64,000 nt of DNA from positions 22,080-86,079 of the forward strand of contig CAISGE010000070.1 in the NCBI GenBank assembly GCA_903884815.1, given 5' to 3'. The position numbers were made by a program, and so were the translations under genes. Positions 915 to 21,927 of the stretch are shown here, one piece after another. This DNA comes from Candidatus Omnitrophota bacterium. GTDB lineage: Bacteria > Omnitrophota > Omnitrophia > Omnitrophales > Aquincolibacteriaceae. Each line of letters begins with the position of its first letter. Within the stretch, counting starts at the first letter, position 1. Below the pieces are notes generated by a model that had not been told where the DNA came from, made no database searches, and saw only the letters and a list, made by a program, of their open reading frames with translations.

Positions 915-1189
915 CGCACACGTCTCTCCCGTTATTACAGAATCATCCAAATGACTTCTCCCTCCGAAACAGTCCTTTATCGGCCAACAGCACCCTAAAA
1001 TAGACCTCCAATTTAAACAGGCGGGGTCTGGCTCTATTTTTGATCCTAAGAAATGGTACCTGCCCCTTTTTTTTGATCCCCGGCGCACCGCCTTCCCACC
1101 CCCAAAAACCCCAATATATGCTATAGTTTTCTCGGGAGAATGGCATAACAATAAGGAATAAATTCTATCATCCTGGGAGGGGATCGTTT

Positions 1190-1693
1190 ATGAAAAGCAT
1201 CAAAAAGGGATTCACGCTTGTTGAAGTCTTGATCGTGGTCGTAATCATCGCCATTCTCGCATCACTCATCGTCCCGCGCATGCTGATGCAAACCGAAAAA
1301 GCCAAAGCGGCGGAGGCCATGCAGGCAGTTGGTATTATCAAGCGTGCCGCGGAAAGACTCTACGACTTTTCCGGATCTTTCAATATCCCCAGCCAATATA
1401 ACAGTATTTACACATACCGTCCGGGAATGGGCACTAACACGGGCGATTTCGTGGACCTTGGAGTTACAGGGATGGAGAAGTCACAAAGCTGGGACTTTCA
1501 CTATTGGGTCACCGGTACCGGTACAGGAATGGGAATTCGAGCGAGTAACAACAGCCCTGACGGCACCTACAATGCAATGGTGTACACATATCCTCCCAAT
1601 GCACTGGGTAGCTGGGCCTGCAGCGGCGTATTCAAGGCTATTAATGCCACCGCCAACCATCCTGATAATTCTGATATAGGCTGCACGATTTAA
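1190..1693 (+). CDS. Type IV pilin-like / type II secretion pseudopilin (prepilin N-terminal cleavage/methylation domain protein)
   Basis: MKSIKKGFTLVEVLIVVVIIAILASLIVP: the G|FTLVE prepilin peptidase site with Glu at +5, followed by a hydrophobic helix. RBS GGGAGGGG lies 7 nt upstream of the ATG. Confidence 0.85.
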   Translation: MKSIKKGFTLVEVLIVVVIIAILASLIVPRMLMQTEKAKAAEAMQAVGIIKRAAERLYDFSGSFNIPSQYNSIYTYRPGMGTNTGDFVDLGVTGMEKSQSWDFHYWVTGTGTGMGIRASNNSPDGTYNAMVYTYPPNALGSWACSGVFKAINATANHPDNSDIGCTI

Positions 1694-1766
1694 TAAGATA
1701 GGCTGAATTTGGGCTTGCCTGCCAGCAGGTAGGGATTTGGATTTTAAAAAATAGTGCCTCCCCCCT

Positions 1767-2417
1767 TTAAACCGCAAGGACGTAGAGGAGCATTCCGAGG
1801 CGAGAGCCGAAGAGCTTTTCGGGAGAGAGGCGCAACGGCAGGACGTTCAGGCCACCGGTTTTGAGGATTCGCATACCGTTGTGGAGTTCTTTGAGACGTG
1901 AAGGCGTAAATGGCACTTCCTTGATCCCCGGCATCACAAGGGGCCGGACAAATTCCCACCAGGAATAGCAATTCGGTACAAAGGTCGCAACAATCCCGTT
2001 CTCTTTTTTGAGCATCCTGAAACGATCCATGAGGCGCTGCTGGTCCGCGCTCGAAAAATGCTCGAAAAGTCCGTCCGTAAAAATCAGGTCAAACTTCCCC
2101 GCATAGGACTCCGTCCAACCCTCGCGAAAAAGATCTTCCTGAAGATAGGCCTCGCACTTTCCGTGGGTGTTCTTGCGCGTGATCTCAAGCGAAGCCGCCG
2201 AATGGTCCAGAGACCATACGCGGCAGCCTTTGTTCATAAAATAGGACGAAAAAAATCCCGAGCCGCAACCGGCGTCCAAAACTTCCATGCCTTCGCGGAC
2301 AACATCGTCCAGGACTTCCATGATACGAACCTTGCTCCAGCTTTTTTGAGTAAAACGCCGAGTCCCCGTCGCGCTCCAAAAGCGATCCCAGTTCTCCCTC
2401 TTGACGCCGTGTTCCAT
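1767..2417 (-). CDS. Class I SAM-dependent methyltransferase
   Basis: VLDAGCGSGFFSS (motif I, GxGxG) and DLIFTDGLFEH (motif II region). The start was trimmed to MEHGVK at 2417 so it abuts the stop of the upstream GT2 gene; the longer ORF would overlap that gene. Confidence 0.8.
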   Translation of the reverse strand: MEHGVKRENWDRFWSATGTRRFTQKSWSKVRIMEVLDDVVREGMEVLDAGCGSGFFSSYFMNKGCRVWSLDHSAASLEITRKNTHGKCEAYLQEDLFREGWTESYAGKFDLIFTDGLFEHFSSADQQRLMDRFRMLKKENGIVATFVPNCYSWWEFVRPLVMPGIKEVPFTPSRLKELHNGMRILKTGGLNVLPLRLSPEKLFGSRLGMLLYVLAV

Positions 2418-2418
2418 A

Positions 2419-3393
2419 CTATCTCCGGACCTTAAACCCGAAGCGCAGCACGCCCTGCATCGCGCCCCAGCCCCAGGCAAAACAGCGCGCAAATTGCACG
2501 GGAATGCCATACACCGCCGCTGCCGGATCTCGTTTAAAGATAAAACCGAAATTGTTCAAGCAGGAGACAAAAAGAAAGAAAAAGAGCAATGCCGGAATGA
2601 CGCAAAGGCCACGGACAGGCAACAGGAGAAGCGAAAGCGGCAAAAGACCCGAAGCCAGGACCTGATATTTCGCGAGTCCTCCGGTATATACATCGCCGTT
2701 TCTTTTGTCGGGATGATCATTATAAAGTTTGATACGGTCAAATCCACGGCGCGCCTGATTTTTCATGTAAGGCCAGAACGCCTCGGGATGCTCATGCGCG
2801 ACAATCGCCTCCGGCGCGAACAAAATCTTGTAGCGGCGCGAGATCCGGTAGGTCAGATCCCAGTCCTCCCCGCTCGGAGCTTTGTAGGATTCCTCAAAAC
2901 CACCCATTGCCTCGAGGATCTTTTTCCTTATGGCAAGATTGTAGGCCCCGTGCGCGTCCACCACACCCCGGACATTGCGATAACGCCACGCGATCTCATG
3001 TCCTGCGAAACGGGCGAGGACATTTTCTTCGTTGAAGGTCCGGTAAGTCCCAGCGACACCGGCAATGTCATCGGAGGTGAAAGAGATGAGCAATTTCTCA
3101 ATCCAATCCTTATCCGGGACACAATCCCCGTCGGTAAAGATCACGACATCTGCCTGCGCAGCGCGCCAGGCAATATTACGGGAAGCCGCCGGACCTTGAT
3201 TGGTGTTGCGTATGAGACGGATCAGGGGATGCTGCTTCGCGTAGCTTTCGATCACGCCCGCCGTCCCGTCTTTTGAACCGTCATCCACGAACACGATCTC
3301 CTCCGGCATGCGGGACTGGGCCAAGAGGCTCTCGATAAGCCGAGCTATATGCTTTTCTTCGTTGTAAACCGCGGAGACGACCGCAATTCTCAT
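2419..3393 (-). CDS. Family 2 glycosyltransferase (GT-A fold)
   Basis: MRIAVVSAVYNEEKHIARLIESLLAQ...VFVDDGSKDGT...TDGDCVP is the GT2 signature (DXD/DGD). Start chosen at MRIAVV (3393), which forms an ATGA 4-nt overlap with the upstream B12-rSAM stop. There is a C-terminal TM segment. Confidence 0.85.
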   Translation of the reverse strand: MRIAVVSAVYNEEKHIARLIESLLAQSRMPEEIVFVDDGSKDGTAGVIESYAKQHPLIRLIRNTNQGPAASRNIAWRAAQADVVIFTDGDCVPDKDWIEKLLISFTSDDIAGVAGTYRTFNEENVLARFAGHEIAWRYRNVRGVVDAHGAYNLAIRKKILEAMGGFEESYKAPSGEDWDLTYRISRRYKILFAPEAIVAHEHPEAFWPYMKNQARRGFDRIKLYNDHPDKRNGDVYTGGLAKYQVLASGLLPLSLLLLPVRGLCVIPALLFFFLFVSCLNNFGFIFKRDPAAAVYGIPVQFARCFAWGWGAMQGVLRFGFKVRR

Positions 3394-4886
3394 GACGCCT
3401 TTTCCCGTGTGAGTAGTTTTTTGATGAAGAAGCCGAACCCGTAAAGGATCCGGGAACACTCCTGCGGAGAAACCAGGCATTGCCACAGTTTTCGCAGCAT
3501 GAATAACGGGCGCAGGTAGAACTCATGGTAAGCGCGGTCCGTGAACTTCGCGATTGCCTCGCCGGTCAGTTCGCCCCGGTGGACTTGGGAAGCGTAATAG
3601 CCGCTGCCCCGTAGCCACTCGTCATAATTCTCGGAATCCAGCTCTCCACTCGCCTTCGCTTCTTCATAAGCACGCGTCCCGGGATAGACCATGATCGGGA
3701 AAAACTGCGCGGTGTCGAGATTCATACGCTTGGCCATTTCCAGTGTTCCCCGCATCGTCGCGGGCGTTTCATTCGCGCCGCCGAAAAGGAAACAACCATG
3801 GATCATGATCCCGGCCTCGGCGCAGGCCTTCACGAAACGTTCCCGTATTTGGATCGTGGCGCCGCCTTTTTTCATCTCATCCAGGATCGCCTGGTCCGCG
3901 GACTCGAATCCCACGCAGAAAAGCCGGCAACCTGCTTTTTTCATAAGCTTGAGGAGCGCCACATCGTCAAAATCTGCGCGCGCGTTTCCGGACCACGTCA
4001 CCTTGAGGCCACGTCGCAAGATCTCTTCCGAAAGCTGGCGCATGCGGTCCTTATCGACGGTCAGCGTGTCATCTTCGAACATGATCTCTTTATTGTGAGG
4101 CCAGGTCTTTTGGATAAATTCCATCTCATCGACGACGTCCTTCACGGAACGCGGCCGGTAGCGTTGGCCGGTGATCGTCTGGGGGAAGACGCAGAACGTG
4201 CACTGATAAGGGCAACCGCGGCCGCTGACGATCGTCACCTCAGGATGGAGTTGTGCGCCGTAGCTGTAATGCTCGATCTTTAGAAAATCACGATAGATCA
4301 GACTCGCCCAAGGAATCTCATCCAGATTCTCGTGCCAGGGACGGCGTTCGTTGAGAATAAGCTGTTCATCCAAGCGGTAGGCGATCCCCTGAACGCCGGA
4401 AAGCCCCGCGCGACTCTTCCCCTGATCAAAATGCCGAACAACTTCAAGGATTGTAAAATCGTACTCCCCCACCGCTACTATATCCAGCCTCGACGACATC
4501 TTGAGGGTTTCCAGAGGACGTGCGGTGGGATGCGTCCCCACGAGCATCGTCATGGCCCCCGTCTTTTGAGCCAGCCGTTCCATCGCCTGAACATCATGAA
4601 AGACCGAGGCGGTCACGGTGGTGGCCACGATAAGATCCGGTTGGAATTTCTCGACGCGCTCTTCGGTACGCGCGAGATCATAATCTTTCGCCGGGGCGTC
4701 CAGAAAATCGATCGTAAACCCGTGCTTACGGACCAATCCCGCGGCCAGAGAAAGATAGATGGGATAATAAAGGGTCCCGGAGGGCGCCACACCCGGAGAG
4801 CGGCTTTCCCTTGTGAAACGGGAGTGGTAAGGGATATTCAAGAAAAATACTTTCACGCGTTTGTCCTTTCGCGAGACTGATGCCAC
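3390..4886 (-). CDS. B12-binding domain radical SAM protein (class B rSAM; putative methyltransferase or other C-C chemistry)
   Basis: N-terminal Rossmann-like B12-binding region (LIVATTVTAS...MLVGTHPT), then a radical SAM core GRGCPYQCTFC (CxxxCxxC). GTG start at 4886, with an alternative GTG 10 codons in. Confidence 0.85.
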   Translation of the reverse strand: MASVSRKDKRVKVFFLNIPYHSRFTRESRSPGVAPSGTLYYPIYLSLAAGLVRKHGFTIDFLDAPAKDYDLARTEERVEKFQPDLIVATTVTASVFHDVQAMERLAQKTGAMTMLVGTHPTARPLETLKMSSRLDIVAVGEYDFTILEVVRHFDQGKSRAGLSGVQGIAYRLDEQLILNERRPWHENLDEIPWASLIYRDFLKIEHYSYGAQLHPEVTIVSGRGCPYQCTFCVFPQTITGQRYRPRSVKDVVDEMEFIQKTWPHNKEIMFEDDTLTVDKDRMRQLSEEILRRGLKVTWSGNARADFDDVALLKLMKKAGCRLFCVGFESADQAILDEMKKGGATIQIRERFVKACAEAGIMIHGCFLFGGANETPATMRGTLEMAKRMNLDTAQFFPIMVYPGTRAYEEAKASGELDSENYDEWLRGSGYYASQVHRGELTGEAIAKFTDRAYHEFYLRPLFMLRKLWQCLVSPQECSRILYGFGFFIKKLLTREKAS

Positions 4887-4928
4887 CTTGAGATTCCGGA
4901 AGAACCTGCCTCAATTTTTTGTTATTAT

Positions 4929-5567
4929 ATGCTTCCGGAGGATAAAATCCAAAAGATGAATGCCGCCATGATCTTCCAACCTCTCCTTGCGGGTCTCTCG
5001 GTTGGTGCCTTCTGTCTCACTTACTGCTTCCCCTTCATGGGCGCGTTCTTCGGCGCCGAGCCGCGGGGCCTAAAAAAAGACTTCCGTGTGCTTCTGGAAT
5101 TCTTGTTGGGACGCCTTGCCGGCTATCTTTGCTTCGGACTGCTTGTGGGTTATCTTGGAGAAAGATTCGACCCCCGGTGGCTGCGCCTGGCCACCAACAT
5201 TTCATTCGTTGTTTTATCGCTCGCGCTTTTTCTCTACCTCCTCGGCCTGGTCCGTGAAATCCCTCTTTGCAAAACACCGCGCTGGCTTGAGGGCAAACAC
5301 CCGGCGCTTATGGGGTTCCTGATGGGGATCAACCTTTGCCCCCCGTTCCTCCTTTCTATCACCTATGTTTTTTCACGGCAGAGTCCGCTGTACGGGATGC
5401 TGTACTTCGCGATTTTCTTTCTCTCGAGCTCGGTTTATTTCTTGCCGCTCGTGTTCATCGGACTGGCTTCGCAGGCAAAAGCCTTCCGGAGCATGGCCCG
5501 CACAAGCGGCTTTCTCGTCGCCGGGATCTTTTTCATTTACGGGATCTATTCCCTGATACGGAGTTAG
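4929..5567 (+). CDS. Polytopic membrane protein (about 6 TM; TauE/SafE- or DsbD-like transporter fold), function unknown
   Basis: Hydropathy shows six hydrophobic helices. There is a CxxxC pair in TM1 (FCLTYCF). Assignment rests on ORF length and codon usage only. Confidence 0.55.
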   Translation: MLPEDKIQKMNAAMIFQPLLAGLSVGAFCLTYCFPFMGAFFGAEPRGLKKDFRVLLEFLLGRLAGYLCFGLLVGYLGERFDPRWLRLATNISFVVLSLALFLYLLGLVREIPLCKTPRWLEGKHPALMGFLMGINLCPPFLLSITYVFSRQSPLYGMLYFAIFFLSSSVYFLPLVFIGLASQAKAFRSMARTSGFLVAGIFFIYGIYSLIRS

Positions 5568-5577
5568 GAGACCTTTT

Positions 5578-5883
5578 ATGTGGAAATGGTTTGCCTCAGT
5601 CGACCGTCATGCCCGGTGGATCCTCGCCCTGATCATGCTGCTTTTCATTATCACCGGCCTCGGGATCACCAAAGGCCTCATGGACACGCGGTTGGCTAAA
5701 GAGCTGCATGAGAATATCCTACCGATCCCGTTTTATATTCTGATCATCCTGCATATTTTCTACTCCCTGCCATCGCAACTGCTCCGGTGGAGAGTTTTCA
5801 GAAACGAGCGCACCGCGGAGGCCTATTCACTCCTGACGGCGGCGATCCTGCTCGTCCTCTTCTTCTGGCTGCACTTCCGATGA
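5578..5883 (+). CDS. Small 3-TM membrane protein, hypothetical
   Basis: RBS AGGAGA 8 nt upstream of the ATG. It has three hydrophobic helices. Its TGA overlaps ATGA-style with a possible start of the downstream radical SAM gene. Confidence 0.5.
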   Translation: MWKWFASVDRHARWILALIMLLFIITGLGITKGLMDTRLAKELHENILPIPFYILIILHIFYSLPSQLLRWRVFRNERTAEAYSLLTAAILLVLFFWLHFR

Positions 5884-7016
5884 ATTCCGACAACAGGAAT
5901 CCGCAGCCCCTAGCCTTCTTGCTCCTGTTCCTCCTCCTCGGGACATCGGTCTTTTTTATTTATACCCGTGAACGAGCCCTGCAGGCAGAGCGCACCGAAT
6001 CAGCCACCGCCCATGAAGCCCGGTATTATGAGCCGATACCCCACAGCAACATGCTCCAATGCTTTCTTTGCCCGACACGGTGCGTCCTTTCCTCGGGCCA
6101 GTGGGGCGCCTGCAAGGCGAGGAAGAATATCGGCGGGAAGCTTTATTCGATGGTCTACGGCAAGCTTCCGACCGTGCACGTCGACCCTATCGAGAAAAAA
6201 CCACTTTTCCACTTCCTCCCCGGGAGCCTGGCCTTTTCGATCTCCTCGACAGGGTGCAACATGCGCTGCCTTTTTTGCCAAAATGCCGATATTTCACAGT
6301 GTTTTCCGGGCGACATTCCCACGGAGAACTGGACTCCGGTAGAGGTTGTCAATCGGGCCCTCGCCTCCGGAGCGCAATCGATTGCCTTTACCTACAATGA
6401 ACCCGTGATCAACTATGAGTTCATGCTCGAGACCGCGAGGCTCGCAAAAGTCCGAGGACTCCGTACCGTCGTTATTTCAAATGGCTACATCGAGGATAAA
6501 CCGCTGCGGGAACTCTTGCCATACCTCGATGCCTACAAAGTGGATCTCAAGTCGTTCAGCCAGCATTTCTACAGGAAATACACGGGAGGGACTCTGGACG
6601 CCGTCCTAAAGAGCCTCAAGATCATCAAGGAAAGCGGCGTCTGGCTTGAAATCGTCACGCTCCTTGTCCCCGGAGAAAATGACAGCCCGCAAGAGATCCG
6701 CGCCATGGCTCAATGGATCCGTAAGAATCTCGGCGACAGCGTGCCGCTTCACTTCAGCCGGTTCTTCCCGCAGTACAAATTGCAGAACCTGCCGCCCACG
6801 CCGCCGGAGACGATCGTCAGGGCGCGACGGATCGCGATGGAAGAGGGCCTGAAATTCGTTTATACCGGCAACGTCGCTTATCCGGAAGGTGAGGCGACCT
6901 ATTGCCCCGACTCGAAGGAACAAGTGATCGTCCGCCAAGGTTATTTCATCCTCGCCAACCATTTGAAAAACGGAGCCTGCCCCGATGGAGAAAAAATCCC
7001 TGGTATCTGGAAATAG
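5880..7016 (+). CDS. AmmeMemoRadiSam system radical SAM enzyme (AmmeMemoSam_rS; PflA-like activase family)
   Basis: CFLCPTRCVLSSGQWGAC...GCNMRCLFCQN is the N-terminal Cys cluster plus CxxxCxxC core characteristic of this rSAM family. The start is ambiguous. ATG 5880 overlaps the upstream stop (ATGA) and would add an N-terminal hydrophobic segment (LAFLLLFLLLGTSVFFIY). ATG 6051 (MLQCFLCP) gives a canonical cytoplasmic enzyme of about 321 aa. Confidence 0.85.
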   Translation: MNSDNRNPQPLAFLLLFLLLGTSVFFIYTRERALQAERTESATAHEARYYEPIPHSNMLQCFLCPTRCVLSSGQWGACKARKNIGGKLYSMVYGKLPTVHVDPIEKKPLFHFLPGSLAFSISSTGCNMRCLFCQNADISQCFPGDIPTENWTPVEVVNRALASGAQSIAFTYNEPVINYEFMLETARLAKVRGLRTVVISNGYIEDKPLRELLPYLDAYKVDLKSFSQHFYRKYTGGTLDAVLKSLKIIKESGVWLEIVTLLVPGENDSPQEIRAMAQWIRKNLGDSVPLHFSRFFPQYKLQNLPPTPPETIVRARRIAMEEGLKFVYTGNVAYPEGEATYCPDSKEQVIVRQGYFILANHLKNGACPDGEKIPGIWK

Positions 7017-8598
7017 ACCTGAAATCTCAAATCTCAAATTTCAAATAGCGCTTCTGACCGCCATTCTTTCCCTGGCCTTCACACTCCCGTCCCCCGCGGT
7101 GAAAGCGGCGCCGGAGCCGTCCCGCGTCCGCAAGGCCGCCGTGGCCGGAGGCTTTTATCCGGGGACCCCCAAAGAACTCATCGATTTTGTAGACGCCATG
7201 CTCCGCCAGGCGAACCCGCCCAAGATCGAGGGCCCGATCCTCGCGATCATGGTCCCACACGCCGGATATATCTATTCTGGACCTGTCGCCGCTTATGCCT
7301 ACAAAGAACTTGAGGGCCGCGACATCCGCACCGTGATCCTGATCGGCAACAGTCACCGCCATTATTTTGACGGCATCGGGATCGATGCGAAGGGCGCCTT
7401 CGAAACACCGCTGGGTCTCGTCCCTATCGATGAGGCCTTTGCAGAGAAGCTCCTTGCCGCGGATCCCGCCATCGTCGACCGCCCCGATATTCATGAAGGC
7501 GACCATGTCCTGGAGGTGCAACTTCCCTTCCTCCAGCGCGTTCTGAAATATTTCAAGATCGTGCCTATTCTCTTCAGCGGTGATTCACCCGAACTCGCCC
7601 GGAAGCTCGCCGGAGCCCTTGCCCCACTTCTGGATGAAAAAACACTGGTCGTCGCAAGCACCGACATGTCTCATTATCCGCCGTATGCCGAGGCCGGAGC
7701 CGCCGACAAGAAAACGCTCGACGCCATTCTGACCGGAAAAATGGAGAACCTGGATACCGATCTGAAGTCTCTCGAAACTCAACATGTCCCGCAAGCCGAA
7801 ACCTTTCTCTGCAGCCCGAGCGGCGTCCGTGTCGCGATGCTCCTGTCGCAGAACTTGGGGAAACTTCAGCCCGTTCTTTTGAGATACGCCAATTCGGGAG
7901 ATTCCCCAGCCGGCGAGAAGGGCCGCGTGGTCGGGTACGGCGCGATCGCTTTCGTTGCCCAAACCAGTGCGACACCCGCAACGCCCTCGCCCGCCGCCGC
8001 GGAAAAAGATACGCCCCACCCCCAGAAGCCCGAGGAAGGCATCTTGAAGAAATCCGAGCAAGACGAGCTCCTCCGGATTGCACGCTCGACCGTGGAGAGT
8101 CTCATCAAAACCGGGAAAGTACCAGATATCTCTCCCTCTTCCCCGGCCCTTCAACAACCACTCGGAGCCTTCGTCACTCTTAAGGAACGCGGCCAACTTC
8201 GCGGATGCATCGGCCGGTTTGAACCCACAGAACCACTTTACAAGATCGTTCAACAAATGGCGGTCTCCGCGGCGACCGAGGATCCCCGGTTCAGGCCCGT
8301 GAGTCCCGGTGAGCTGGATAAACTCGAATATGAGATCTCCGTCCTGAGCCCTTTGAGAAAGATTCCTGATGCGAACGCGATCGTGCTTGGAAAACACGGC
8401 GTGACGGTCTCAAAAGGATTCCATCACGGTGTATTCCTCCCTCAGGTTGCGACCGAAACGGGATGGAATAAAGAAGAATTCCTCGACGAACTTTGCAGCC
8501 AGAAAGCCGGCCTTCCACGTGATTGCTGGAAGGATCCGGCGGTGGACCTACAGGTTTTTACAGCCGAGGTCTTTACGGAAGAGAAAAAGAAGAACTAA
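6985..8598 (+). CDS. Fused AmmeMemoRadiSam system protein B (Memo/MEMO1 family) and protein A (AMMECR1 domain), with an N-terminal Sec signal peptide or signal anchor
   Basis: Memo motifs AVAGGFYPG and MVPHAGYIYSG...H. After a Pro/Ala-rich linker comes the AMMECR1 motif GAFVTLKERGQLRGCIGRFEP. The N-terminus (IALLTAILSLAFTLPSPAVKA|AP) looks like a signal peptide. The 5' end overlaps the rSAM gene by 32 nt, and there is no alternative in-frame start. Confidence 0.85.
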   Translation: MEKKSLVSGNRPEISNLKFQIALLTAILSLAFTLPSPAVKAAPEPSRVRKAAVAGGFYPGTPKELIDFVDAMLRQANPPKIEGPILAIMVPHAGYIYSGPVAAYAYKELEGRDIRTVILIGNSHRHYFDGIGIDAKGAFETPLGLVPIDEAFAEKLLAADPAIVDRPDIHEGDHVLEVQLPFLQRVLKYFKIVPILFSGDSPELARKLAGALAPLLDEKTLVVASTDMSHYPPYAEAGAADKKTLDAILTGKMENLDTDLKSLETQHVPQAETFLCSPSGVRVAMLLSQNLGKLQPVLLRYANSGDSPAGEKGRVVGYGAIAFVAQTSATPATPSPAAAEKDTPHPQKPEEGILKKSEQDELLRIARSTVESLIKTGKVPDISPSSPALQQPLGAFVTLKERGQLRGCIGRFEPTEPLYKIVQQMAVSAATEDPRFRPVSPGELDKLEYEISVLSPLRKIPDANAIVLGKHGVTVSKGFHHGVFLPQVATETGWNKEEFLDELCSQKAGLPRDCWKDPAVDLQVFTAEVFTEEKKKN

Positions 8599-10809
8599 AA
8601 GCATATTCACGGCCCCCAAAAGTACCAGCGTATTCAAAACGCCCCAGATCGGGATAAGGAAGCCTGCTGTCAGAAGAGCGCCCAATGCCGAGCCCCCAAG
8701 ATCGGCGGCATAAACGCTTCCGAGAAACTTCCCCTGGCCCTTTAACAGATAAAGGCGATTCGCCACCGGAAAGACCATGCCGGCCCAAAATCCCCCAAGA
8801 AGCGCCACGCCTAAAAAGATGAACTGGGACTCCGCGCGGAGGGAGAACAGGCCGGAGAAAATTCCCTCACAAAGCGGTAGCAGCAACAAGAAGAACGCGG
8901 CATTCGCGAGATGAAGCGCCGCCAAAAGCGGCCTTTCGGATATCTTTCCTGACTTCAGAGCAAGCCAAGTCCCGGCACCGAGTCCCGCCATGAATGCCGT
9001 AATGAGCCAAGCGAGACGATAATAGAGATCTCCGAAGGCCGCCTGAAAGAGATAGATCCCCAAGATCTCGGAAGCCATGAGAGAAAAACCAGCCGATCCC
9101 ATGCTCAAGAGGGCAAGCCGCTGTGTCCGTTTTTCAAAACCTTTTGCCCAAGAACCAAAGAACAAGATCACGAGGAGAAACAGACCCAGGATAGCGGAGA
9201 ATGGAACCCCGCCCAAAACAGAGAATCCCCCGGAAACATGGGGATCAAATTGGCTGAGCCACCTGAGGAAGGCGAAATAACAAACCCTCGGCCGCAAGTC
9301 CGTATTCGTGATCTTCACCGCTGCGTTCCTAAAAACCGCAGCAACCCGCGCCACCCGGTCATTCTCCAACCGGTAACGGATAAAGTCCGCCGTCACGAAA
9401 TCCGTCCGAACTTTTCTCTCTAAAAGTCGCCCGGCCATGACCTTCGCGTCCCATGCAAGCGAGGCATTCGCCGAAGCGATAAAAAAAAGCGTATCCTCGG
9501 GAAGGATGCGGACGAAGGGAAAGACCTGCCGGAGCGTCGCGTCAACCGAGGCACCGAACCGCGCGAGAACCGGCGTCGTAAAATCTGCCGCGAAGGTAAT
9601 GTGAGTCGCAAAAATACCGTCCGGCGCAAGATGCGAACGCACCAGGCGGAAGAACCGTTCCGTGTAATTGCGGTTCACGAGAACAGAAACGGGATCCGGA
9701 AAATTCGAAATGATAACATCGAAAATTCCGCCTTCCGTCCTGAGAAAATCGAGAGGGTCCCGGCTACGGAACTTCACCCGGGGATCGATCAGAGCCTTCT
9801 TAGGCCCCTCAGAAAGGAAGCCGGCGGCGATCTTCGCAATTGCCGGATCAAGCTCAACGGAAACAACCTCCGCGGGCGCGTGCTTCAAGATCTCCTCAAG
9901 CGGTCCGTTAAAACCCGTTCCAAGTATCAGTATCCTGCGGGGAGAGGAATGCGCGAGCATCGGGAAATGCACCAGATATTCACTCGCGAGATCCGCCTGA
10001 TCCGCCCCCAAAAGCAGTCCGTTTTGATAGAAGTCGTGCTGACGCCCCAGGCGTGTGACGGACACATTCCCATGGATGGTGTTCCGGGTTACCAGAAGTT
10101 TTTCATTCGGAAACCGGAACTGGGATGTTTTCTGCTGAATGGCCGAGCTGCCCACCACAAGCCCTATAAGAAAAATAAGCCCTAAAAGGGCCATCGCTAG
10201 CTGATGGGATCTTTTCTCTCCCGCGAGATTGAGGATGAGGGACGCGGCAGTGAAATTCAAAATGGCCAGGATTGCCGCAACACGGAACTCGTTGGCGAAA
10301 ACTAGAAAAAAACTGAAAGCAATACCTCCCGTGACGAACCCCAGGCATTCCCAAAGGTAGGCCCCGCCAACCATTTGAGCCGCATCACCCCTCGAGTCTC
10401 CCGACGCCCGCACTCGGGCCGCAGCTGTAAATTGAATTCCCATCACCCCGCAAAGGGGTACAAGCACCGCGAAAGAATAAATGAGCGACGGAGAAAGTGC
10501 GGGAATGGAGCCGGGCGGTGTGGCAAGTATCATCTTGCCGGAACGAACTAGGAAGATCGCGAGCGGGAAAAGGAGGGCGGACAGGCCATGGCAGAGTCCG
10601 AGAAGTCGGGAGAGGCTCCGTACCTCCGCAGTCGCCCTTGATCCCAACGCGCTCCCGACAGCCGTACCGATGAGCCAGCAAAAGAGTATCCACCCAATGA
10701 AAAACTCGTTGCCGTAGAAACTCATCGCCAGTTCTCGGGTCACCACAACCTGAGAAACGAGGGAAGAGAATCCGAGGACCGTAAAAGAAAAAATGAGGAT
10801 CTTTTTCAT
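8548..10809 (-). CDS. Fused polytopic membrane (MFS-like) domain and spermidine synthase-like (PABS-fold aminopropyltransferase/methyltransferase) protein
   Basis: N-terminal half has at least 8 TM segments. The middle has ILILGTGFNGPLEEILKHAPAEVVSVELDP, a spermidine-synthase-type Rossmann motif. The C-terminal block has additional TM segments. Its 3' end overlaps the convergent Memo-AMMECR1 gene by 51 nt. Confidence 0.8.
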   Translation of the reverse strand: MKKILIFSFTVLGFSSLVSQVVVTRELAMSFYGNEFFIGWILFCWLIGTAVGSALGSRATAEVRSLSRLLGLCHGLSALLFPLAIFLVRSGKMILATPPGSIPALSPSLIYSFAVLVPLCGVMGIQFTAAARVRASGDSRGDAAQMVGGAYLWECLGFVTGGIAFSFFLVFANEFRVAAILAILNFTAASLILNLAGEKRSHQLAMALLGLIFLIGLVVGSSAIQQKTSQFRFPNEKLLVTRNTIHGNVSVTRLGRQHDFYQNGLLLGADQADLASEYLVHFPMLAHSSPRRILILGTGFNGPLEEILKHAPAEVVSVELDPAIAKIAAGFLSEGPKKALIDPRVKFRSRDPLDFLRTEGGIFDVIISNFPDPVSVLVNRNYTERFFRLVRSHLAPDGIFATHITFAADFTTPVLARFGASVDATLRQVFPFVRILPEDTLFFIASANASLAWDAKVMAGRLLERKVRTDFVTADFIRYRLENDRVARVAAVFRNAAVKITNTDLRPRVCYFAFLRWLSQFDPHVSGGFSVLGGVPFSAILGLFLLVILFFGSWAKGFEKRTQRLALLSMGSAGFSLMASEILGIYLFQAAFGDLYYRLAWLITAFMAGLGAGTWLALKSGKISERPLLAALHLANAAFFLLLLPLCEGIFSGLFSLRAESQFIFLGVALLGGFWAGMVFPVANRLYLLKGQGKFLGSVYAADLGGSALGALLTAGFLIPIWGVLNTLVLLGAVNMLLVLLFLFRKDLGCKNL

Positions 10810-11825: not shown

Positions 11826-13016
11826 TCAGGCTTTCGCTTGAAGAGGTAGTGTAAAAATAAACTTCGATCCTTTACCGAGTTCCGACTCAATCCATATCTT
11901 GCCGCCGTGAAGGTCCACAATATCCTTGGCAATGGAAAGGCCAAGGCCCGTTCCTTCCGCTTTCTCCGTCAGAATGCGCTCGAACTTGTCGAAAAGCTTG
12001 CGCTGATTCTCCGGGCTAATTCCCCCTCCGGTATCCTCCACTTCCACGCGGGCCTCCCCTTCCACTGCAAGAAGCCGCAACACAACCTTACGGCCCTCGG
12101 GCGTGTATTTCAAGGCATTGCTCGTCAGATTCACCACCACCTGGGTCAAACGGTCTTCATCGGCAAGCACTGTCACCGGTTCGGCTGGGATCTCAAGACC
12201 AAACTGGATATTCTTTTTTACCGCCTCCTCCACAAAAGATTCGCGCGTGCCTTTCAGGACGCTCCCGAGATCCACCGTTCCGAGCTCGAGCTTCATTTTC
12301 CCGGCCGCGATCTTGGAAACATCCAGAATATCCTTGATCAAGCGTAGGAGGCGTTTGATGGTTCGAAGCATGATCTCGATCGTCTCCGTTTGCTTCGTCG
12401 TCACGGGCCCGTAAAAACCATCCTGCAGGTTGTCAGCAAACCCTTTCATGATCGCAAGCGGTGATTTGAGTTCGTGGGACACATTGGCCACGAAAGCATC
12501 TTTCTTCTCATCCAGTTCTTTCAGGCGCGTCACATCGAGATAAAGCTGGCGGTCCAAAAGCTGGGACAGTGCAAGAACGATCTCGGTCTCGCTCATAGCT
12601 TTCGGCGCATTGACCGCGGGAGCACTTTCGCGAGCCGGCGTTTTCTTAAGATACATCTCCACCGCAGAGATCAGCGCGGCGCCTTCATCCTTGCCGTAGA
12701 AACCATCCGCACCGGTCTGAAAGCTCCATTTCTGGGGATCCTGGACCACGCCTACGGCATCGCGGGCCGTCATCATAACGATTGGAATGTCCTTCGTGGC
12801 AGGATGATCTTTGAGGAGTCGGCAGACTTGATAACCGTTGATCTTGGGCATATGAACATCGAGAAGGATGAGGTCGGGAATGCGGGAAAATACGGTATTG
12901 ATCGCTTCGATCCCATCCACGGCGGTCAAAACCTCATAACCGCCGTCCTCAAGCTGCACTTTGTACATCTCTCGCACAAGAGAACTATCATCCACCACGA
13001 GAATAATTTTTTTCAC
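11826..13016 (-). CDS. Hybrid sensor histidine kinase with an N-terminal receiver domain (REC-HisKA-HATPase_c)
   Basis: REC: [18 protein letters not shown]...[13 protein letters not shown]. HisKA H-box: [15 protein letters not shown]. HATPase: G-boxes ([19 protein letters not shown]). Confidence 0.85.
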
Positions 13017-13035
13017 AGAGTCCCCCTCGGGTATC

Positions 13036-14040
13036 TCAGCGTACGGACCGGTTTATTTCATCCGCCATAGAATCAAGAGACAGCACGCAGGCGATCGCGC
13101 CTTGATCCACCGCCACTTTATTCATCCCGTAGATCGCGGAGGTCTTCTCATCCTGCGCGATCGTGTGGCCCCCCGCCGCTCGAATAGCTGCAATCCCCTC
13201 CACACCGTCCCGTCCCATACCGGTCATGATCACACCCACCGCCCTGTCCTTATAAATCTCTGCCGCTGAGAGCATCATCACGTCGATCGAGGGAACATGA
13301 AGCATTTTCCGGGACCCATCTTCCTTAAGAACGATCTTCTCTTCCTCATTGACGGTCATATGAACCCCATCCGGCGCAAAATAAACGGTTCCGCTTTTAA
13401 GTGGATCGCCCGCTTTAGCTACCCGGAGACTGAGCGCCGAGGTTAAACTCAACCACTCCACAAGCCCTTGAATGAACCCTGTGGAAATATGCTGGACAAT
13501 AAGAACGCATGCCGGAAGATCGGCGGGCAGTTTTGCGAGAAGGGCTTGCAGCGCCTGAGGCCCCCCTGTTGATACACCCAGGGCCACCACCCGCGTGGCA
13601 GCTTCTCTGTTCGTGACAAGCCTCTTCACTACCGGGCGGATATGCATCCTCCGGAGAGCTTTCACCCGGGAAGCGATCTTCACCTTCAACAGTACTTCCC
13701 CCTTGATCTCATCGAGGTCCCCGGTACTTGCCACAAAATCCATGGCTCCAAAGCTAAGCGCCTTGACGATGATCGGAACTTCCCGGCTGCTGACGATCAC
13801 GATCGGAGTCGGGCACTCTTCCATGATCAGCTCCGTCGCTTCCAATCCTCCCATCACCGGCATGGTTATATCCATGGTGACCACGTCCGGCCTCAAGGCT
13901 AACGTCTTTTCATAGCCTTCTTTCCCGTTGCGGGCCTCGCCAATCACTTCGATCTCAGGGTCCGCACTCAAAATGGTATTCAGCGCCTGGCGCACCAGCG
14001 TCGAATCATCAACAATCAAAACACGGATATTTTTCGGCAT
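13036..14040 (-). CDS. cheB: Chemotaxis response regulator protein-glutamate methylesterase CheB
   Basis: REC domain ([14 protein letters not shown]...[11 protein letters not shown]) plus the CheB methylesterase catalytic domain ([31 protein letters not shown]). Start set at MPKNIRV with RBS AAGGGAA. Confidence 0.9.
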
Positions 14041-14101
14041 AATTCCCTTTATGTTGAAATTCAAAACGCATGCATTGAACTTTTATCTCTAACGCTGCGT
14101 T

Positions 14102-16255: not shown

Positions 16256-16288
16256 CCGTAGGCCCCAAGATCAAAGCTTAGCTTAATT

Positions 16289-17806
16289 TTACAATTCGAA
16301 ATTGGAAGCGAGTTGCTTCAACTCACCAGCCAAGGCTCTAAGTTGTGTCACTGAAACTTGAGACTGATGGGCACCCGCTGAAATCTGCTTCATGGCTTTG
16401 TCGATACCCATCATGGCATCCGAGATTTGCTTAAAGCCGGAGATCTGCTGGTTCGAGGACATCTGGATCTCCCTAGCCCTTTCCGTGGTCTGCTGCGCAA
16501 GCCCTGCCTCTTCATCCACGCTCAGGATGCTTTGTTCCATGGACATGATCGCGTTCGACATTTCGTGCTGGATCAGCTCGATCAGCGCCGTGATGTCTTT
16601 CGTGGATTTCGCCGTCGAATCAGAGAGCTTCCGGATCTCATCCGCCACCACGGTAAACCCGCGACCCTGTTCCCCGGCGCGCGCCGCCTCGATCGATGCG
16701 TTCACCGCTAAAAGGTTCGTCTGGTCGGCCACGTCATCGATAAGATCCGTGATCTTGCCAATCCGTTGGGATTTTTCACCAAGGGAATTCAGCATCCCGT
16801 TCGTCTTGTCGATGGCCTCTTTGATCTTCGTCATCCCGGCCAGCGCGTGAGCCGCGACCTGCGCGACCTTTTTGATGCTTTCTCCAACGGATTCAGAAGT
16901 CGTCGAGAGCTCCTTTGCCGCCGCCGCGGTCTCCGTAACCGCTGATGACTGCTGAAAGGCGGTGGAAGCCTGTTCCTGAGAAGCCGTAAGTATCTCCTGG
17001 CTTGAAATCGTCATTTGATGCGTGGCATCCTGGACTTTTTTGATAATGGTCCTCAACCCCGCTGTCATATCATTAAAACTTGCCGCCAGAGCGCCAATTT
17101 CGTCGTTCGATTCCACCTTTACTTCTTTTGTAAGATTTGCATTGGCGACCAGATTCACCACGGCAGCCAAGGAATCCAGGGGATTCACGATGAGCCTGTT
17201 AAGGAGAAGAAAAATAGCACCGATCACCGCCAACAGGATCAGAGCCTGCATCAATCCGGCCTTGATCAGATCCCGTCGCATCGCGTCAAGGCTCGGCTGA
17301 AAGACAACCGTCGTCCTCAAGAGCGCCATCACATCACCCACTTGAATGCCCGCGTGACAAGCCATACAGTCCTTCCCAGCGATCAGCGGTGAAATGATAC
17401 GAATGGCTGCACTCCCCCCCACACTTATTGTTTGGCGTATGGGTTGACCGGAATTAAGCGCCTGCAGGTCAAGGTCATCCTTCGTTGGGCTATTCTTGCG
17501 TTCGCCAAGTTCTTTTTCGAGCAACGGAGATCGAACCACGCGGATCTCAGCCACCGACTGAAGCTTGCTTCCCTTATCAAGATAGGCTTCGAGATCGCTT
17601 TGCTGACCGGTCCTCATGAATCCATAGACAGCTTCATGGATCGAATCGGATAAAACATTCGCTCCCTGGATCGCCTGGCGTTTTACGTTCTCATGCGAAG
17701 AGTAAAAGAGCCAACCCATCATCAAAACGCCCCCCAGGAAAAGAATCCCAAATAGCGCGATCATGAACTTGGCGCGAATTCCCATCGCCCCTGCTTTTTT
17801 TGCCAT
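16289..17806 (-). CDS. Methyl-accepting chemotaxis protein with a periplasmic sensor domain carrying a CxxCH heme-c binding motif
   Basis: TM1 (aa 15-35), a periplasmic domain of about 140 aa containing GKDCMACHAG, TM2, HAMP, and the MCP signalling domain (LAVNASIEAARAGEQGRGFTVVADEIRKL). Confidence 0.9.
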   Translation of the reverse strand: MAKKAGAMGIRAKFMIALFGILFLGGVLMMGWLFYSSHENVKRQAIQGANVLSDSIHEAVYGFMRTGQQSDLEAYLDKGSKLQSVAEIRVVRSPLLEKELGERKNSPTKDDLDLQALNSGQPIRQTISVGGSAAIRIISPLIAGKDCMACHAGIQVGDVMALLRTTVVFQPSLDAMRRDLIKAGLMQALILLAVIGAIFLLLNRLIVNPLDSLAAVVNLVANANLTKEVKVESNDEIGALAASFNDMTAGLRTIIKKVQDATHQMTISSQEILTASQEQASTAFQQSSAVTETAAAAKELSTTSESVGESIKKVAQVAAHALAGMTKIKEAIDKTNGMLNSLGEKSQRIGKITDLIDDVADQTNLLAVNASIEAARAGEQGRGFTVVADEIRKLSDSTAKSTKDITALIELIQHEMSNAIMSMEQSILSVDEEAGLAQQTTERAREIQMSSNQQISGFKQISDAMMGIDKAMKQISAGAHQSQVSVTQLRALAGELKQLASNFEL

Positions 17807-17827
17807 TTTGTTCCCGGATCTTTTCAG

Positions 17828-19369: not shown

Positions 19370-19392
19370 GATGTCTCTCCTTGTTGTCCGGA

Positions 19393-21895: not shown

Positions 21896-21927
21896 TCGGG
21901 GATGCGTTCTGTCTTGGTCATGAAAAT

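What the first reader, a model, noticed from the sequence alone, without database searches (positions are those of the whole stretch)
1767..4886. Translationally coupled B12-radical SAM / GT2 glycosyltransferase / SAM-methyltransferase triad, back-to-back with the AmmeMemoRadiSam block
Three enzymes sit on the minus strand with 4-nt (ATGA) overlaps between successive genes:
- a B12-binding radical SAM enzyme
- a GT2 glycosyltransferase
- a class I SAM-methyltransferase

This looks like a single modification pathway, for example methylation or glycosylation of a lipid, sugar or peptide. It diverges from the membrane/AmmeMemoRadiSam genes with only about 42 bp between the divergent starts, so regulation may be shared. 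No substrate gene such as a precursor peptide is evident, so the target is unknown.
Basis: partly seen in the sequence, partly recalled or inferred. Interest (0 to 1): 0.55.

Follow-up and report, generated by a model that had tools for sequence, protein, structure and literature searches.

The report
HpnJ-like radical SAM sugar-tailoring operon
Three tightly packed genes in an uncultured Omnitrophota bacterium form a widely conserved but uncharacterised enzyme set, related to a hopanoid-lipid sugar-remodelling pair, that most likely builds an unusual methylated sugar at the membrane for decorating the cell surface.

Summary
The three genes are real: a B12-binding radical SAM enzyme (3390-4856), a membrane GT2 glycosyltransferase (2419-3393) and a class I methyltransferase (1767-2417), all on the minus strand. 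Only the first junction is an ATGA overlap. The second is TAG-t-ATG.

They do belong together. The radical SAM enzyme is HpnJ-like (332 bits on the HpnJ model, cut-off 578) and falls in a sister clade of true HpnJ. Three clades of such enzymes are each followed directly by a membrane GT2: the window's clade, a candidate-phyla-radiation (CPR) type, and true HpnJ with HpnI.

The methyltransferase family is small. It occurs fused to the GT2 and, elsewhere, fused to the radical SAM enzyme.

In other phyla the cassette sits beside:
- GacI/GacJ-like polyprenyl-phosphate sugar synthases
- GT-C transferases (STT3, PMT_2, DUF2142, GT87)
- type IV pilus operons, in three loci

Adjacency to the AmmeMemoRadiSam block is lineage-level synteny only.

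Best reading: a membrane-associated cassette that transfers, radically remodels and methylates a probably lipid-linked sugar for a surface glycoconjugate. Substrate and chemistry are inferred, not shown. It is a new variant of a known kind and moderately interesting.

The parts
3390..4856 (-). HpnJ-like cobalamin-dependent (class B) radical SAM enzyme, 488 aa. The longest ORF extends to GTG 4886.
   Evidence: Pfam finds B12-binding plus Radical_SAM. The best NCBIfam model is HpnJ TIGR03471 at 331.7 bits, full length, against a cut-off of 577.6. The CxxxCxxC motif (C215/C219/C222) is invariant. The AF2 model's closest folds are TsrM, AprD4, OxsB and TokK. An NJ tree places it in a sister clade of true HpnJ.
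2419..3393 (-). Membrane-anchored GT2 glycosyltransferase, 324 aa, with a GT-A domain plus C-terminal helices.
   Evidence: Pfam gives Glycos_transf_2, Glyco_tranf_2_3 and Glyco_transf_21. The best NCBIfam models are MftF (135.8, cut-off 280) and EpsD (112.8); HpnI scores only 25.4. The AF2 model has pLDDT 93.5. By Foldseek the top E-value is PcManGT 6YV7 and the best TM-score is 0.74 to Chlorella virus hyaluronan synthase. A hydrophobic segment spans residues 245-288.
1767..2417 (-). Class I SAM-dependent methyltransferase, 216 aa, from a small family carrying SWSK and FVPN..SWW motifs.
   Evidence: Pfam gives Methyltransf_25/11/23. Only 18 cluster representatives reach E<=1e-30 among 1.84 billion. 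It is fused to the GT2 in P0159 and P0214, to a B12-rSAM in P0361, and to an Alg13-like domain in P0368.
3390..3393 (-). ATGA stop/start overlap between the rSAM and the GT2.
   Evidence: Read directly from the sequence. Stop/start overlaps at this junction are also seen in the gene tables of L092-L096, L177, L180 and HpnJ-like relatives.
2415..2421 (-). GT2 stop TAG, one spacer base, then the MTase ATG. It is not an overlap. A GGAGA ribosome-binding site lies within the end of the GT2 gene.
   Evidence: Read directly from the sequence.
4857..4928 (.). Divergent intergenic region between the rSAM start and the DsbD_2-like gene. It presumably holds the operon promoter.
   Evidence: The promoter scan found nothing above the level of shuffled sequence.
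1190..1693 (+). Type IV pilin/pseudopilin-like gene convergent with the MTase. It is a possible, unproven link to the cassette.
   Evidence: It has an N_methyl motif and GspG/ComGC-like hits. Related cassettes are embedded in pilus operons in L092, L095 and L180. This pilin is absent next to the cassette in other Omnitrophota.

Best explanation
The three genes form one operon encoding a membrane-associated sugar-tailoring cassette.

**Proposed steps (all inferred).**
1. The GT2 has a minimal cellulose-synthase-like fold with C-terminal membrane helices. It transfers a sugar from a nucleotide donor onto a membrane-anchored acceptor, most likely a polyprenyl-phosphate-linked sugar.
2. The upstream, translationally coupled HpnJ-like cobalamin radical SAM enzyme remodels that sugar by 5'-deoxyadenosyl-radical chemistry. 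By analogy with its sister clade HpnJ this would be a carbocycle-forming ring contraction. C-methylation or deoxygenation are the alternatives.
3. The class I methyltransferase adds an O- or N-methyl group.
4. The product is then flipped across the membrane and used by a GT-C type transferase encoded elsewhere in the genome to decorate a surface glycan or protein.

**Shown here.**
- gene structure and family assignments
- deep conservation of the rSAM->GT2 pair
- fusions of the MTase with each partner
- a glycan, GT-C or pilus context in other lineages

**Inferred.** The acceptor, the order of the steps, the radical chemistry and the final target.
For: **1. The rSAM is HpnJ-like.**
- It aligns full-length to the HpnJ model at 331.7 bits. 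The next best model is BchE at 156.
- It falls in a sister clade of HpnJ in an NJ tree.
- Relatives from Fibrobacter, Lawsonia and CPR-type loci score 355-376 bits. True HpnJ scores 832.

**2. The rSAM->GT2 order recurs in three clades that are 31-36% identical to one another.**
- True hpnJ-hpnI-hpnL-like-hpnK in Burkholderia.
- The CPR-type clade: L092, L093, L095, L096, L177 and L180.
- The window's clade: outside the genus Fibrobacter, 28 of 48 loci have the GT2 as the very next gene and 33 have it within 3 kb.

**3. Fusion proteins link all three enzymes.**
- GT2-MTase: P0159 and P0214. The MTase part of P0159 is 53% identical to the window's.
- B12-rSAM-MTase: P0361.

**4. The triad recurs** in L008, L010, L097, L177, L178, L180 and L182/L183.

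**5. Context elsewhere points to lipid-linked sugars.**
- A short GT2 whose best model is PpgS (129.7 bits), paired with DUF2304. This matches the GacI/GacJ GlcNAc-P-undecaprenol synthase pair (bioRxiv 10.1101/180810).
- GT-C enzymes: STT3/AglB, PMT_2, DUF2142 and GT87.
- BacA, sugar-nucleotide enzymes and WbaP-like priming transferases.

**6. The GT2 model** resembles membrane GT2s that act on membrane-held acceptors: PcManGT and hyaluronan synthase, TM-score 0.74.

**7. On-lipid sugar modification has precedents.** HpnI/K/J (PMC13459092) and DprE1/E2 with TfpW.
Against: - No substrate or product is known for any member of this clade. HpnJ's own reaction rests on a knockout only.
- The window itself has no GacI/GacJ pair, no flippase and no adjacent GT-C. 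The nearest GT-C genes (PMT_2) are 45-58 kb away.
- The GT2 is not related to HpnI beyond the shared fold (BLASTP E 0.05). It did not match GtrB, DPMS or ArnC-type polyprenyl-phosphate transferases among the top 50 fold hits.
- In Fibrobacter the rSAM stands without the GT2.
- The rSAM could act on a nucleotide-linked sugar rather than a lipid-linked one. Fom3, which acts on a CMP-linked substrate, co-clusters with HpnJ in the published network (PMC9204698).
- The structural neighbours include methylases, the diol dehydratase AprD4 and a ring-contracting enzyme (OxsB), so the fold does not fix the chemistry.
Confidence: 0.55

Rival explanations
1. Same cassette, but the radical SAM enzyme is a cobalamin-dependent C-methyltransferase that makes a branched-chain sugar (as MoeK5 or GenK do). 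It is not a ring-contracting enzyme. The class I enzyme then adds a second, O- or N-linked methyl group.
For: Most characterised class B radical SAM enzymes are methylases. HpnJ co-clusters with the methylases Fom3 and MoeK5 in the published sequence network (PMC9204698). Structural neighbours include TsrM, MgmA, CysS and TokK. The Lawsonia plasmid locus carries the homologue among five class I methyltransferases, which suggests a heavily methylated glycan.
Against: The nearest family by a wide margin is HpnJ, a proposed non-methylase. No sequence feature tested here separates methylases from non-methylases.
Confidence: 0.3
2. The radical SAM enzyme modifies the soluble nucleotide-activated sugar first. 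The GT2 then transfers the already modified sugar. Nothing is remodelled on a lipid.
For: Fom3, a network neighbour of HpnJ, works on a CMP-linked substrate. The rSAM gene lies upstream of the GT2 in all three clades. Sugar-nucleotide enzymes flank many loci.
Against: The only genetically studied relatives act after the sugar is on the lipid: HpnJ, and by analogy calditol synthase. The MTase and the rSAM are fused to, or coupled with, a membrane-anchored GT2.
Confidence: 0.2
3. The cassette modifies the head group of a bulk membrane lipid, that is a glycolipid on a diacylglycerol, ether lipid or polyol lipid. This would be analogous to HpnI/HpnJ on bacteriohopanetetrol or calditol synthase on archaeal tetraethers. 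It would not act on a polyprenyl-phosphate donor.
For: The rSAM belongs to a sister clade of HpnJ and shows the same rSAM->GT2 order. The GT2 hits Glyco_transf_21, the ceramide glucosyltransferase-type family, above its cut-off. LPG_synthase_TM (HpnL-like) genes lie near some cassettes.
Against: The cassette is common in CPR bacteria and DPANN archaea. These are generally held, from outside knowledge, to lack lipid synthesis of their own. It co-occurs there with GacI/GacJ-like synthases and GT-C transferases, which use polyprenyl-phosphate sugars.
Confidence: 0.15
4. It is the ordinary hopanoid side-chain pathway (HpnI/HpnJ), making bacteriohopanetetrol cyclitol ether.
For: HpnJ is the best-scoring model.
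Against: The score is 331.7 against a cut-off of 577.6, while true HpnJ scores 832. The GT2 scores 25 bits on HpnI against a cut-off of 310. No hpnK or other hopanoid gene was found among the ORFs of at least 150 aa scanned in the 64-kb window. A survey reports HpnI and HpnJ domains only in genomes that also have SHC and HpnH (bioRxiv 10.1101/2025.07.29.667474). The clade occurs in archaea and in CPR-type loci.
Confidence: 0.02
5. It is a peptide (RiPP) tailoring set whose precursor gene was missed. Alternatively, the three genes are unrelated and merely adjacent.
For: Some B12-rSAMs methylate RiPPs. Weak hits to ApyD and rSAM_ocin_1 appear.
Against: Those hits are far below their cut-offs. 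The gene tables and ORF families of the loci examined showed no recurring small gene beside the cassette that could encode a precursor. The conserved neighbours are glycan genes. Fusions and cross-phylum synteny exclude chance adjacency.
Confidence: 0.03

Closest known systems
HpnJ / HpnI (with HpnK and HpnL): hopanoid side-chain glucosamine-to-cyclitol-ether pathway
   Same: Both have a B12-binding radical SAM enzyme of the same subfamily, aligning full-length to the HpnJ model. In both, a membrane GT2 follows immediately in the same order. Some related cassettes also carry an HpnL-like LPG_synthase_TM gene.
   Different: The window's rSAM scores below the HpnJ cut-off and sits in a separate clade about 36% identical to HpnJ. 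The GT2 is not HpnI. There is no HpnK deacetylase. A class I methyltransferase is added. The hosts are Omnitrophota, CPR-type bacteria, DPANN archaea and Fibrobacterota, for which no hopanoid genes were seen here.
GacI/GacJ/GacL and PpgS/Rv3632/Rv3779: polyprenyl-phosphate HexNAc synthase, small DUF2304 partner and GT-C transferase
   Same: In many related loci the cassette lies directly beside a PpgS/GacI-like short GT2, a DUF2304 protein and a GT-C enzyme (bioRxiv 10.1101/180810).
   Different: Those systems contain no radical SAM enzyme, no second membrane GT2 and no methyltransferase. The window itself lacks the GacI/GacJ-like pair.
Three-component extracytoplasmic glycosylation systems with on-lipid sugar editing (Gtr, Arn, the DprE1/E2-TfpW pilin arabinosylation system, and the pentofuranose systems of Kelly et al. 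2024)
   Same: The logic matches: build a sugar on a polyprenyl phosphate, edit it there, flip it, then transfer it by GT-C. TfpW gives a precedent for pilins as the target. Three related cassettes sit inside type IV pilus operons.
   Different: In the known systems the editing enzymes are epimerases, deformylases or oxidoreductases, never a cobalamin radical SAM enzyme. No flippase or GT-C is adjacent in the window.
Sugar-modifying class B and B12-like radical SAM enzymes (MoeK5, GenK, Fom3, AprD4, OxsB)
   Same: They share the domain architecture and fold. They act on sugars or sugar-like substrates. MoeK5 and Fom3 co-cluster with HpnJ in the published network.
   Different: Sequence similarity is low: the AprD4 model scores 65 bits and the PhpK family 113 bits, against 332 for HpnJ. 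They belong to antibiotic pathways in actinomycetes, not to surface-glycan loci.

Membership tests
HpnJ (NCBIfam TIGR03471, equivalog) | Whole-protein score at or above the curated cut-off of 577.6 bits | tested here: not met
   331.7 bits, aligned full-length. True Burkholderia HpnJ scores 832.
HpnJ (NCBIfam TIGR03471, equivalog) | Partnered with HpnI (TIGR03472) and HpnK in a hopanoid (SHC/HpnH) genome | tested here: not met
   The adjacent GT2 scores 25.4 bits on HpnI against a cut-off of 310, and BLASTP against HpnI gives E=0.05. No hpnK, shc or hpnH was found among the ORFs of at least 150 aa scanned in the 64-kb window. The rest of the genome could not be examined.
HpnJ (NCBIfam TIGR03471, equivalog) | Catalyses ring contraction of a lipid-bound hexosamine | not testable with these tools
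   This needs biochemistry. Even for HpnJ it is inferred from a knockout.
Cobalamin-dependent (class B) radical SAM enzymes | N-terminal B12-binding Rossmann domain plus a radical SAM core with CxxxCxxC | tested here: met
   PF02310 scores 46.5 (cut-off 32.1) and PF04055 scores 67.2 (cut-off 29.5). C215/C219/C222 are invariant. Foldseek top hits are TsrM, AprD4, MgmA, OxsB, CysS and TokK.
Cobalamin-dependent (class B) radical SAM enzymes | Actually binds cobalamin | not testable with these tools
   AprD4, a close structural match, has the same domain without needing cobalamin for its reaction. Binding cannot be decided from sequence.
GT2 glycosyltransferases, membrane-integrated 'minimal cellulose-synthase-like' type | GT-A domain with a DxD motif, plus interface and transmembrane helices after a Q-x-x-R-W-like motif | tested here: met
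   PF00535 scores 119.9. TDGD, GEDWD and Q213-x-x-R216 are invariant; the W position of the motif is a glycine in the consensus. The AF2 model has pLDDT 93.5 with four C-terminal helices. Foldseek gives PcManGT at E 5e-14 and hyaluronan synthase at TM 0.74.
GtrB/ArnC/DPMS-type polyprenyl-phosphate glycosyltransferases | Sequence or fold closest to GtrB, ArnC or DPMS | tested here: not met
   The ArnC model scores 41 bits against a cut-off of 529. None of these enzymes is among the top 50 structural matches.
MftF mycofactocin glycosyltransferase (TIGR03965) | Score at or above 280 bits, and mycofactocin genes nearby | tested here: not met
   135.8 bits. No mft genes were seen in the window.
Class I SAM-dependent methyltransferases | Rossmann-fold SAM-binding domain with the glycine-rich motif I | tested here: met
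   Several Methyltransf_* models score above their cut-offs. The motif LDAGCGSG is conserved: L47, D48 and G50-x-G52-S53-G54 are invariant, A49 and C51 vary.
Three-component (polyprenyl-phosphate sugar synthase + flippase + GT-C) glycosylation system | All components encoded together | tested here: inconclusive
   Met in related loci L092, L093, L095, L177 and L180. In the window there is no GacI/GacJ pair and no flippase. The GT-C genes lie only at 50146-51834 and 60836-62425.
AmmeMemoRadiSam system | The triad is part of, or co-inherited with, the AmmeMemoRadiSam genes | tested here: not met
   Adjacency occurs only in Omnitrophota relatives: L009, P0137, and at a distance in L010 and L182. 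It was not found in any fetched locus from other phyla that was screened for it.

The most novel reading that the evidence does not exclude
The cassette makes a previously unseen kind of sugar on a polyprenyl-phosphate carrier. The sugar would be a radical-SAM-remodelled (carbocyclic or C-branched) and methylated residue. GT-C or oligosaccharyltransferase enzymes would then attach it to type IV pilins and other surface proteins in Omnitrophota, CPR bacteria and DPANN archaea. This would be the first role for HpnJ-type chemistry outside hopanoids, and a new class of protein glycan in the uncultured majority of microbes.
Probability: 0.2. Interest if true: 0.8.

Novelty: new variant of a known kind. 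Interest (0 to 1): 0.55.

Why it matters
- **HpnJ chemistry is unproven.** HpnJ is one of the few cobalamin radical SAM enzymes proposed not to methylate, and its reaction has never been shown in vitro.
- **The relatives are numerous and unstudied.** This analysis finds a large set of HpnJ relatives outside hopanoid producers. More than 5,000 proteins reach E<=1e-20, a total that also includes more distant B12 radical SAM enzymes. The relatives examined outside Fibrobacterota are nearly always paired with a membrane GT2, and are tied by gene fusions to a dedicated methyltransferase.
- **Tractable test systems exist.** Homologues occur in cultivable Fibrobacter, Nitrospira relatives and a Lawsonia intracellularis plasmid.
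- **It predicts unusual surface sugars.** The predicted sugars are in Omnitrophota, CPR bacteria and DPANN archaea, organisms whose surface structures, including pili, are thought to mediate their host-attached lifestyles.

Tried and rejected
1. **Metagenome scan with the MTase alignment.** One back-translated pattern was the generic SAM motif, so 78 of the 80 loci were unrelated methyltransferases. Only L097 and L098 were useful.
2. **PDB sequence search with the rSAM.** It gave only distant hits (AprD4, TsrM, MgmA), so no structure of a close relative exists.
3. **Promoter and terminator scan of 1100-5200.** Counts did not exceed those of shuffled sequence. No regulatory claim is made.
4. 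**Search of the whole window for GacI-like, DUF2304, LPG_synthase_TM and cassette-linked polytopic proteins.** None was found. The window's PMT_2 proteins and its 596-aa membrane protein are unrelated to those beside cassettes elsewhere.
5. **Pilin comparison.** The window pilin shares only the N-terminal helix with the pilins next to related cassettes. There is no evidence for a shared glycosylation site.
6. **Lawsonia MTase against the window MTase.** Not orthologous.
7. **An LPG_synthase_TM-like neighbour in Fibrobacteria loci.** I suspected this from reading the sequence, but phmmer did not confirm it, so it is not claimed.
8. **Literature searches** for a cobalamin radical SAM enzyme in undecaprenyl-linked polysaccharide synthesis, and for Omnitrophota with radical SAM and glycosyltransferase. 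Neither found a description of this cassette.
9. **RiPP and hopanoid readings.** Both rejected, as set out under the rival explanations.

Full report
**1. Observation**

ORF listing and direct reading of the minus strand confirm three consecutive genes:
- a 488-aa B12-binding radical SAM protein at 3390-4856 (the longest ORF reaches GTG 4886)
- a 324-aa GT2 at 2419-3393
- a 216-aa class I methyltransferase at 1767-2417

Pfam supports each assignment above its gathering score.

The rSAM/GT2 junction is a genuine ATGA overlap (3393-3390). The GT2/MTase junction is TAG-t-ATG, a one-base spacer with a GGAGA ribosome-binding site. The 'two ATGA overlaps' claim is therefore half right.

Homologues begin MKV.. 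and gene callers mostly aa. The divergent gap to the DsbD_2-like gene is thus 72-99 bp, not 42 bp.

The same locus is found at 100% identity on many metagenomic contigs. The nearest named relatives are Candidatus Omnitrophota MAGs.

**2. What the radical SAM enzyme is**

NCBIfam places it nearest HpnJ: 331.7 bits over the full length, against a curated cut-off of 577.6. The next best model is BchE at 156.

| Protein | Score on the HpnJ model |
|---|---|
| True HpnJ (Burkholderia) | 832 |
| Lawsonia homologue | 376 |
| Fibrobacter intestinalis homologue | 366 |
| CPR-type homologue (L095) | 355 |
| Window rSAM | 331.7 |

(Scores other than the window's are.)

A neighbour-joining tree rooted on BchE puts true HpnJ as the sister of a clade that holds the window protein. 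That clade also holds relatives from Fibrobacterota, Nitrospirota, Thermodesulfovibrionales, Planctomycetota, WOR-3, Deltaproteobacteria, Iainarchaeia and other archaea, and Lawsonia.

Pairwise BLAST shows three groups that are 31-36% identical to one another:
- A: the window type
- B: the CPR type
- C: true HpnJ

The CxxxCxxC motif is invariant. The AF2 model (pLDDT 81) matches TsrM, AprD4, MgmA, OxsB, CysS and TokK. This confirms the class B fold but does not fix the chemistry.

**3. The pair rSAM->GT2 is ancient**

In a true hopanoid locus the order is hpnJ, hpnI (a GT2), an HpnL-like LPG_synthase_TM gene, then hpnK.

In group A, 73 genome loci were evaluated:
- The 25 loci of the Fibrobacter-genus type lack an adjacent GT2.
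- Of the other 48, 28 have a GT2 as the very next gene and 33 have one within 3 kb.

In group B every locus examined has the GT2 directly downstream of the rSAM, most with overlapping stop and start codons.

One point is odd. The window's GT2 is 50-57% identical to GT2s that pair with group B enzymes. It is only 33-36% identical to GT2s that pair with group A enzymes of other phyla. The partners have therefore been re-assorted within the superfamily while the pairing itself was kept.

The GT2 is not HpnI (25 bits on the HpnI model; BLASTP E 0.05). Its AF2 model (pLDDT 93.5) has a GT-A domain followed by four helices. Its best matches are PcManGT and Chlorella virus hyaluronan synthase (TM 0.74). 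It does not match GtrB or DPMS.

**4. The methyltransferase belongs to the set**

Its family is small and specific: 18 cluster representatives at E<=1e-30 among 1.84 billion proteins, and 496 proteins at E<=1e-15 in the larger collection.

It occurs in several arrangements:
- fused C-terminally to the window-type GT2 (P0159, P0214; 53% identity)
- fused C-terminally to a group B rSAM (P0361)
- fused to an Alg13-like domain (P0368)
- as a separate gene after the GT2 in L008, L010, L097, L177, L178, L180 and L182/L183
- before the GT2 in L098

It is absent from some Omnitrophota relatives (L006, L007, L009, P0137). It is therefore an accessory component, but a dedicated one.

**5. Context**

Nothing in the window's own surroundings speaks to the substrate. 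The neighbours are chemotaxis, efflux and two-component genes.

Elsewhere the cassette sits in glycan loci.

| Locus | Genes around the cassette |
|---|---|
| L095, L096, L177 | short PpgS/AglJ-like GT2 plus DUF2304 directly upstream of the rSAM |
| L092 | the same pair upstream; T2SSE, T2SSF, two pilins and STT3/AglB run co-directionally into the cassette |
| L093 | the short GT2 and DUF2304 lie upstream with one gene between them; PMT_2 nearby |
| L095 | cassette embedded in a type IV pilus cluster; a 563-aa polytopic protein directly after three pilins |
| L177 | DUF2142 and BacA |
| L178 | GT87 |
| L180 | T2SSE, T2SSF, pilin, a Wzy_C/TPR protein and PMT_2 run into the cassette; DUF2304 plus short GT2 divergent; prepilin peptidase nearby |
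| Lawsonia plasmid (L086) | GT2s, DUF2304 x2, a SIS-domain protein, a second rSAM, five class I methyltransferases, a HAD-IIIA hydrolase, a GHMP kinase and DUF2142 |

- The short GT2 of L095 scores best on PpgS. That short GT2 plus DUF2304 is the GacI/GacJ (PpgS/Rv3632) arrangement, which makes HexNAc-P-polyprenol for GT-C enzymes (bioRxiv 10.1101/180810).
- Archaeal and other group A loci carry WbaP-like priming transferases, GT4s, GT9s, Alg13/14-like genes and sugar-nucleotide enzymes. These identifications come from reading the sequences.
- Three cassettes (L092, L095, L180) are therefore embedded in type IV pilus operons.
- The window has a pilin-like gene convergent with the MTase (1190-1693). 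That gene is missing beside the cassette in other Omnitrophota and shares only the N-terminal helix with the other pilins.

**6. The AmmeMemoRadiSam neighbour**

The divergent arrangement with DsbD_2, a small membrane protein, the AmmeMemoRadiSam rSAM and the Memo-AMMECR1 fusion is seen in close Omnitrophota relatives only (L009, P0137). In L010 and L182/L183 several genes (L182/L183: CBS, thioredoxin, DUF6901 and two small ORFs without a Pfam match) lie in between. It was not found in any fetched locus from another phylum that was screened for it. This is conserved synteny within a lineage, not evidence of a shared function.

**7. Mechanism**

I commit to a membrane-associated cassette that transfers, radically remodels and methylates a sugar destined for a surface glycoconjugate. 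Most probably the sugar sits on a polyprenyl-phosphate carrier that a GT-C enzyme later uses.

Precedents for editing a sugar after it is on the lipid:
- HpnI/K/J (PMC13459092; PMC9204698)
- calditol synthase (PMC9092360)
- DprE1/E2 with TfpW pilin arabinosylation (bioRxiv 10.1101/2020.04.19.049825)
- the three-component systems of Kelly et al. (PMC11127046)

The radical step could be a ring contraction as proposed for HpnJ, a C-methylation as in MoeK5 or GenK, or a deoxygenation as in AprD4. Sequence and fold do not decide between them. The rSAM might also act on the nucleotide sugar before transfer.

**8. Novelty and verdict**

I found no description of this cassette in the searchable literature.

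It is not a member of HpnJ, HpnI, MftF or any other curated family tested. It works within a known logic, lipid-linked sugar tailoring for extracytoplasmic glycosylation, with a new enzymatic ingredient. I rate it a new variant of a known kind.

Interest is moderate (0.55). The association is robust and broad, and it makes HpnJ-type chemistry testable in new systems. No substrate, product or phenotype is in hand.

Noticed in passing
window 4929-8598 (+): The AmmeMemoRadiSam block looks membrane- or periplasm-oriented. It comprises a DsbD_2-like membrane protein, a 101-aa membrane protein, and an AmmeMemoRadiSam rSAM with an N-terminal hydrophobic segment (MNSDNRNPQPLAFLLLFLLLGTSVFFIY). It also has a fused Memo+AMMECR1 protein (537 aa) whose N-terminus resembles a signal peptide (..ALLTAILSLAFTLPSPAVKAAPE). 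An exported Memo-AMMECR1 fusion next to a DsbD-like electron conduit would be unusual for this still-uncharacterised system.
   Followed up: partly
L086 (Lawsonia intracellularis plasmid 1, NC_008012.1, 7082-26518): The 27-kb plasmid of this obligate intracellular pig pathogen is largely a glycan locus. It holds a 38%-identical homologue of the window rSAM, a second radical SAM gene and five class I methyltransferases. It also holds GT2s, two DUF2304 genes, a SIS-domain protein, a HAD-IIIA hydrolase, a GHMP kinase and DUF2142. This suggests a heavily methylated surface sugar, possibly made from a heptose-type precursor.
   Followed up: partly
L092 3193-9632; L095 5444-16950; L180 1-12645: In three unrelated metagenomic lineages the related five-gene module sits inside type IV pilus operons. 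The module is short GT2, DUF2304, B12-rSAM, GT2 and MTase. In each case it lies next to a candidate pilin glycosyltransferase: STT3/AglB, a 563-aa polytopic protein, or Wzy_C/TPR plus PMT_2.
   Followed up: partly
window 48250-51834 and 60836-62425 (-): Two PMT_2-type GT-C glycosyltransferases (562 and 529 aa) and a 596-aa, roughly 12-helix membrane protein without a Pfam match lie here. They are candidate users of lipid-linked sugar donors. They are 45-58 kb from the triad and unrelated to the polytopic proteins beside cassettes elsewhere.
   Followed up: partly
window 52069-57408 (-): A giant 1779-aa protein made of BACON_2 and Ig-like (HYDIN/CFA65/Cep192-type) repeats, presumably a surface or adhesion protein.
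   Followed up: no
window 8548-10809 (-): A 753-aa protein with many predicted membrane helices around a spermidine-synthase-like domain (fused MFS/SpdSyn type). It is conserved next to the AmmeMemoRadiSam block in Omnitrophota relatives.
   Followed up: no
window 11826-22036 (-): A complete chemotaxis-type signalling operon: a response-regulator/histidine-kinase hybrid, CheB, a CheA-CheW-receiver hybrid, two MCPs, CheW and a CheR-TPR fusion. It is syntenic with the triad region across Omnitrophota relatives.
   Followed up: no
window 60001-64000: G+C content drops to about 0.45-0.46, against about 0.53 for the rest of the window. The drop spans a PMT_2 gene and a HAD-type phosphatase, so this may be an acquired segment.
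   Followed up: no
L027-L085 (Fibrobacter loci), upstream of the rSAM: In the genus Fibrobacter the homologous rSAM lacks an adjacent GT2. It is constantly preceded by a MORN/YwqK-like repeat lipoprotein. Further upstream lies a DedA/VTT-like membrane protein, identified only by reading the sequence. That family has been linked to polyprenyl-phosphate recycling.
   Followed up: no
(window GT2 against its partners): The window's GT2 and MTase are closest to those that pair with the CPR-type rSAM clade (50-57% identity). Yet its rSAM belongs to a different clade, about 31% identical to the CPR type. This implies that partners were exchanged within the superfamily, or that part of the cassette was transferred horizontally.
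   Followed up: partly
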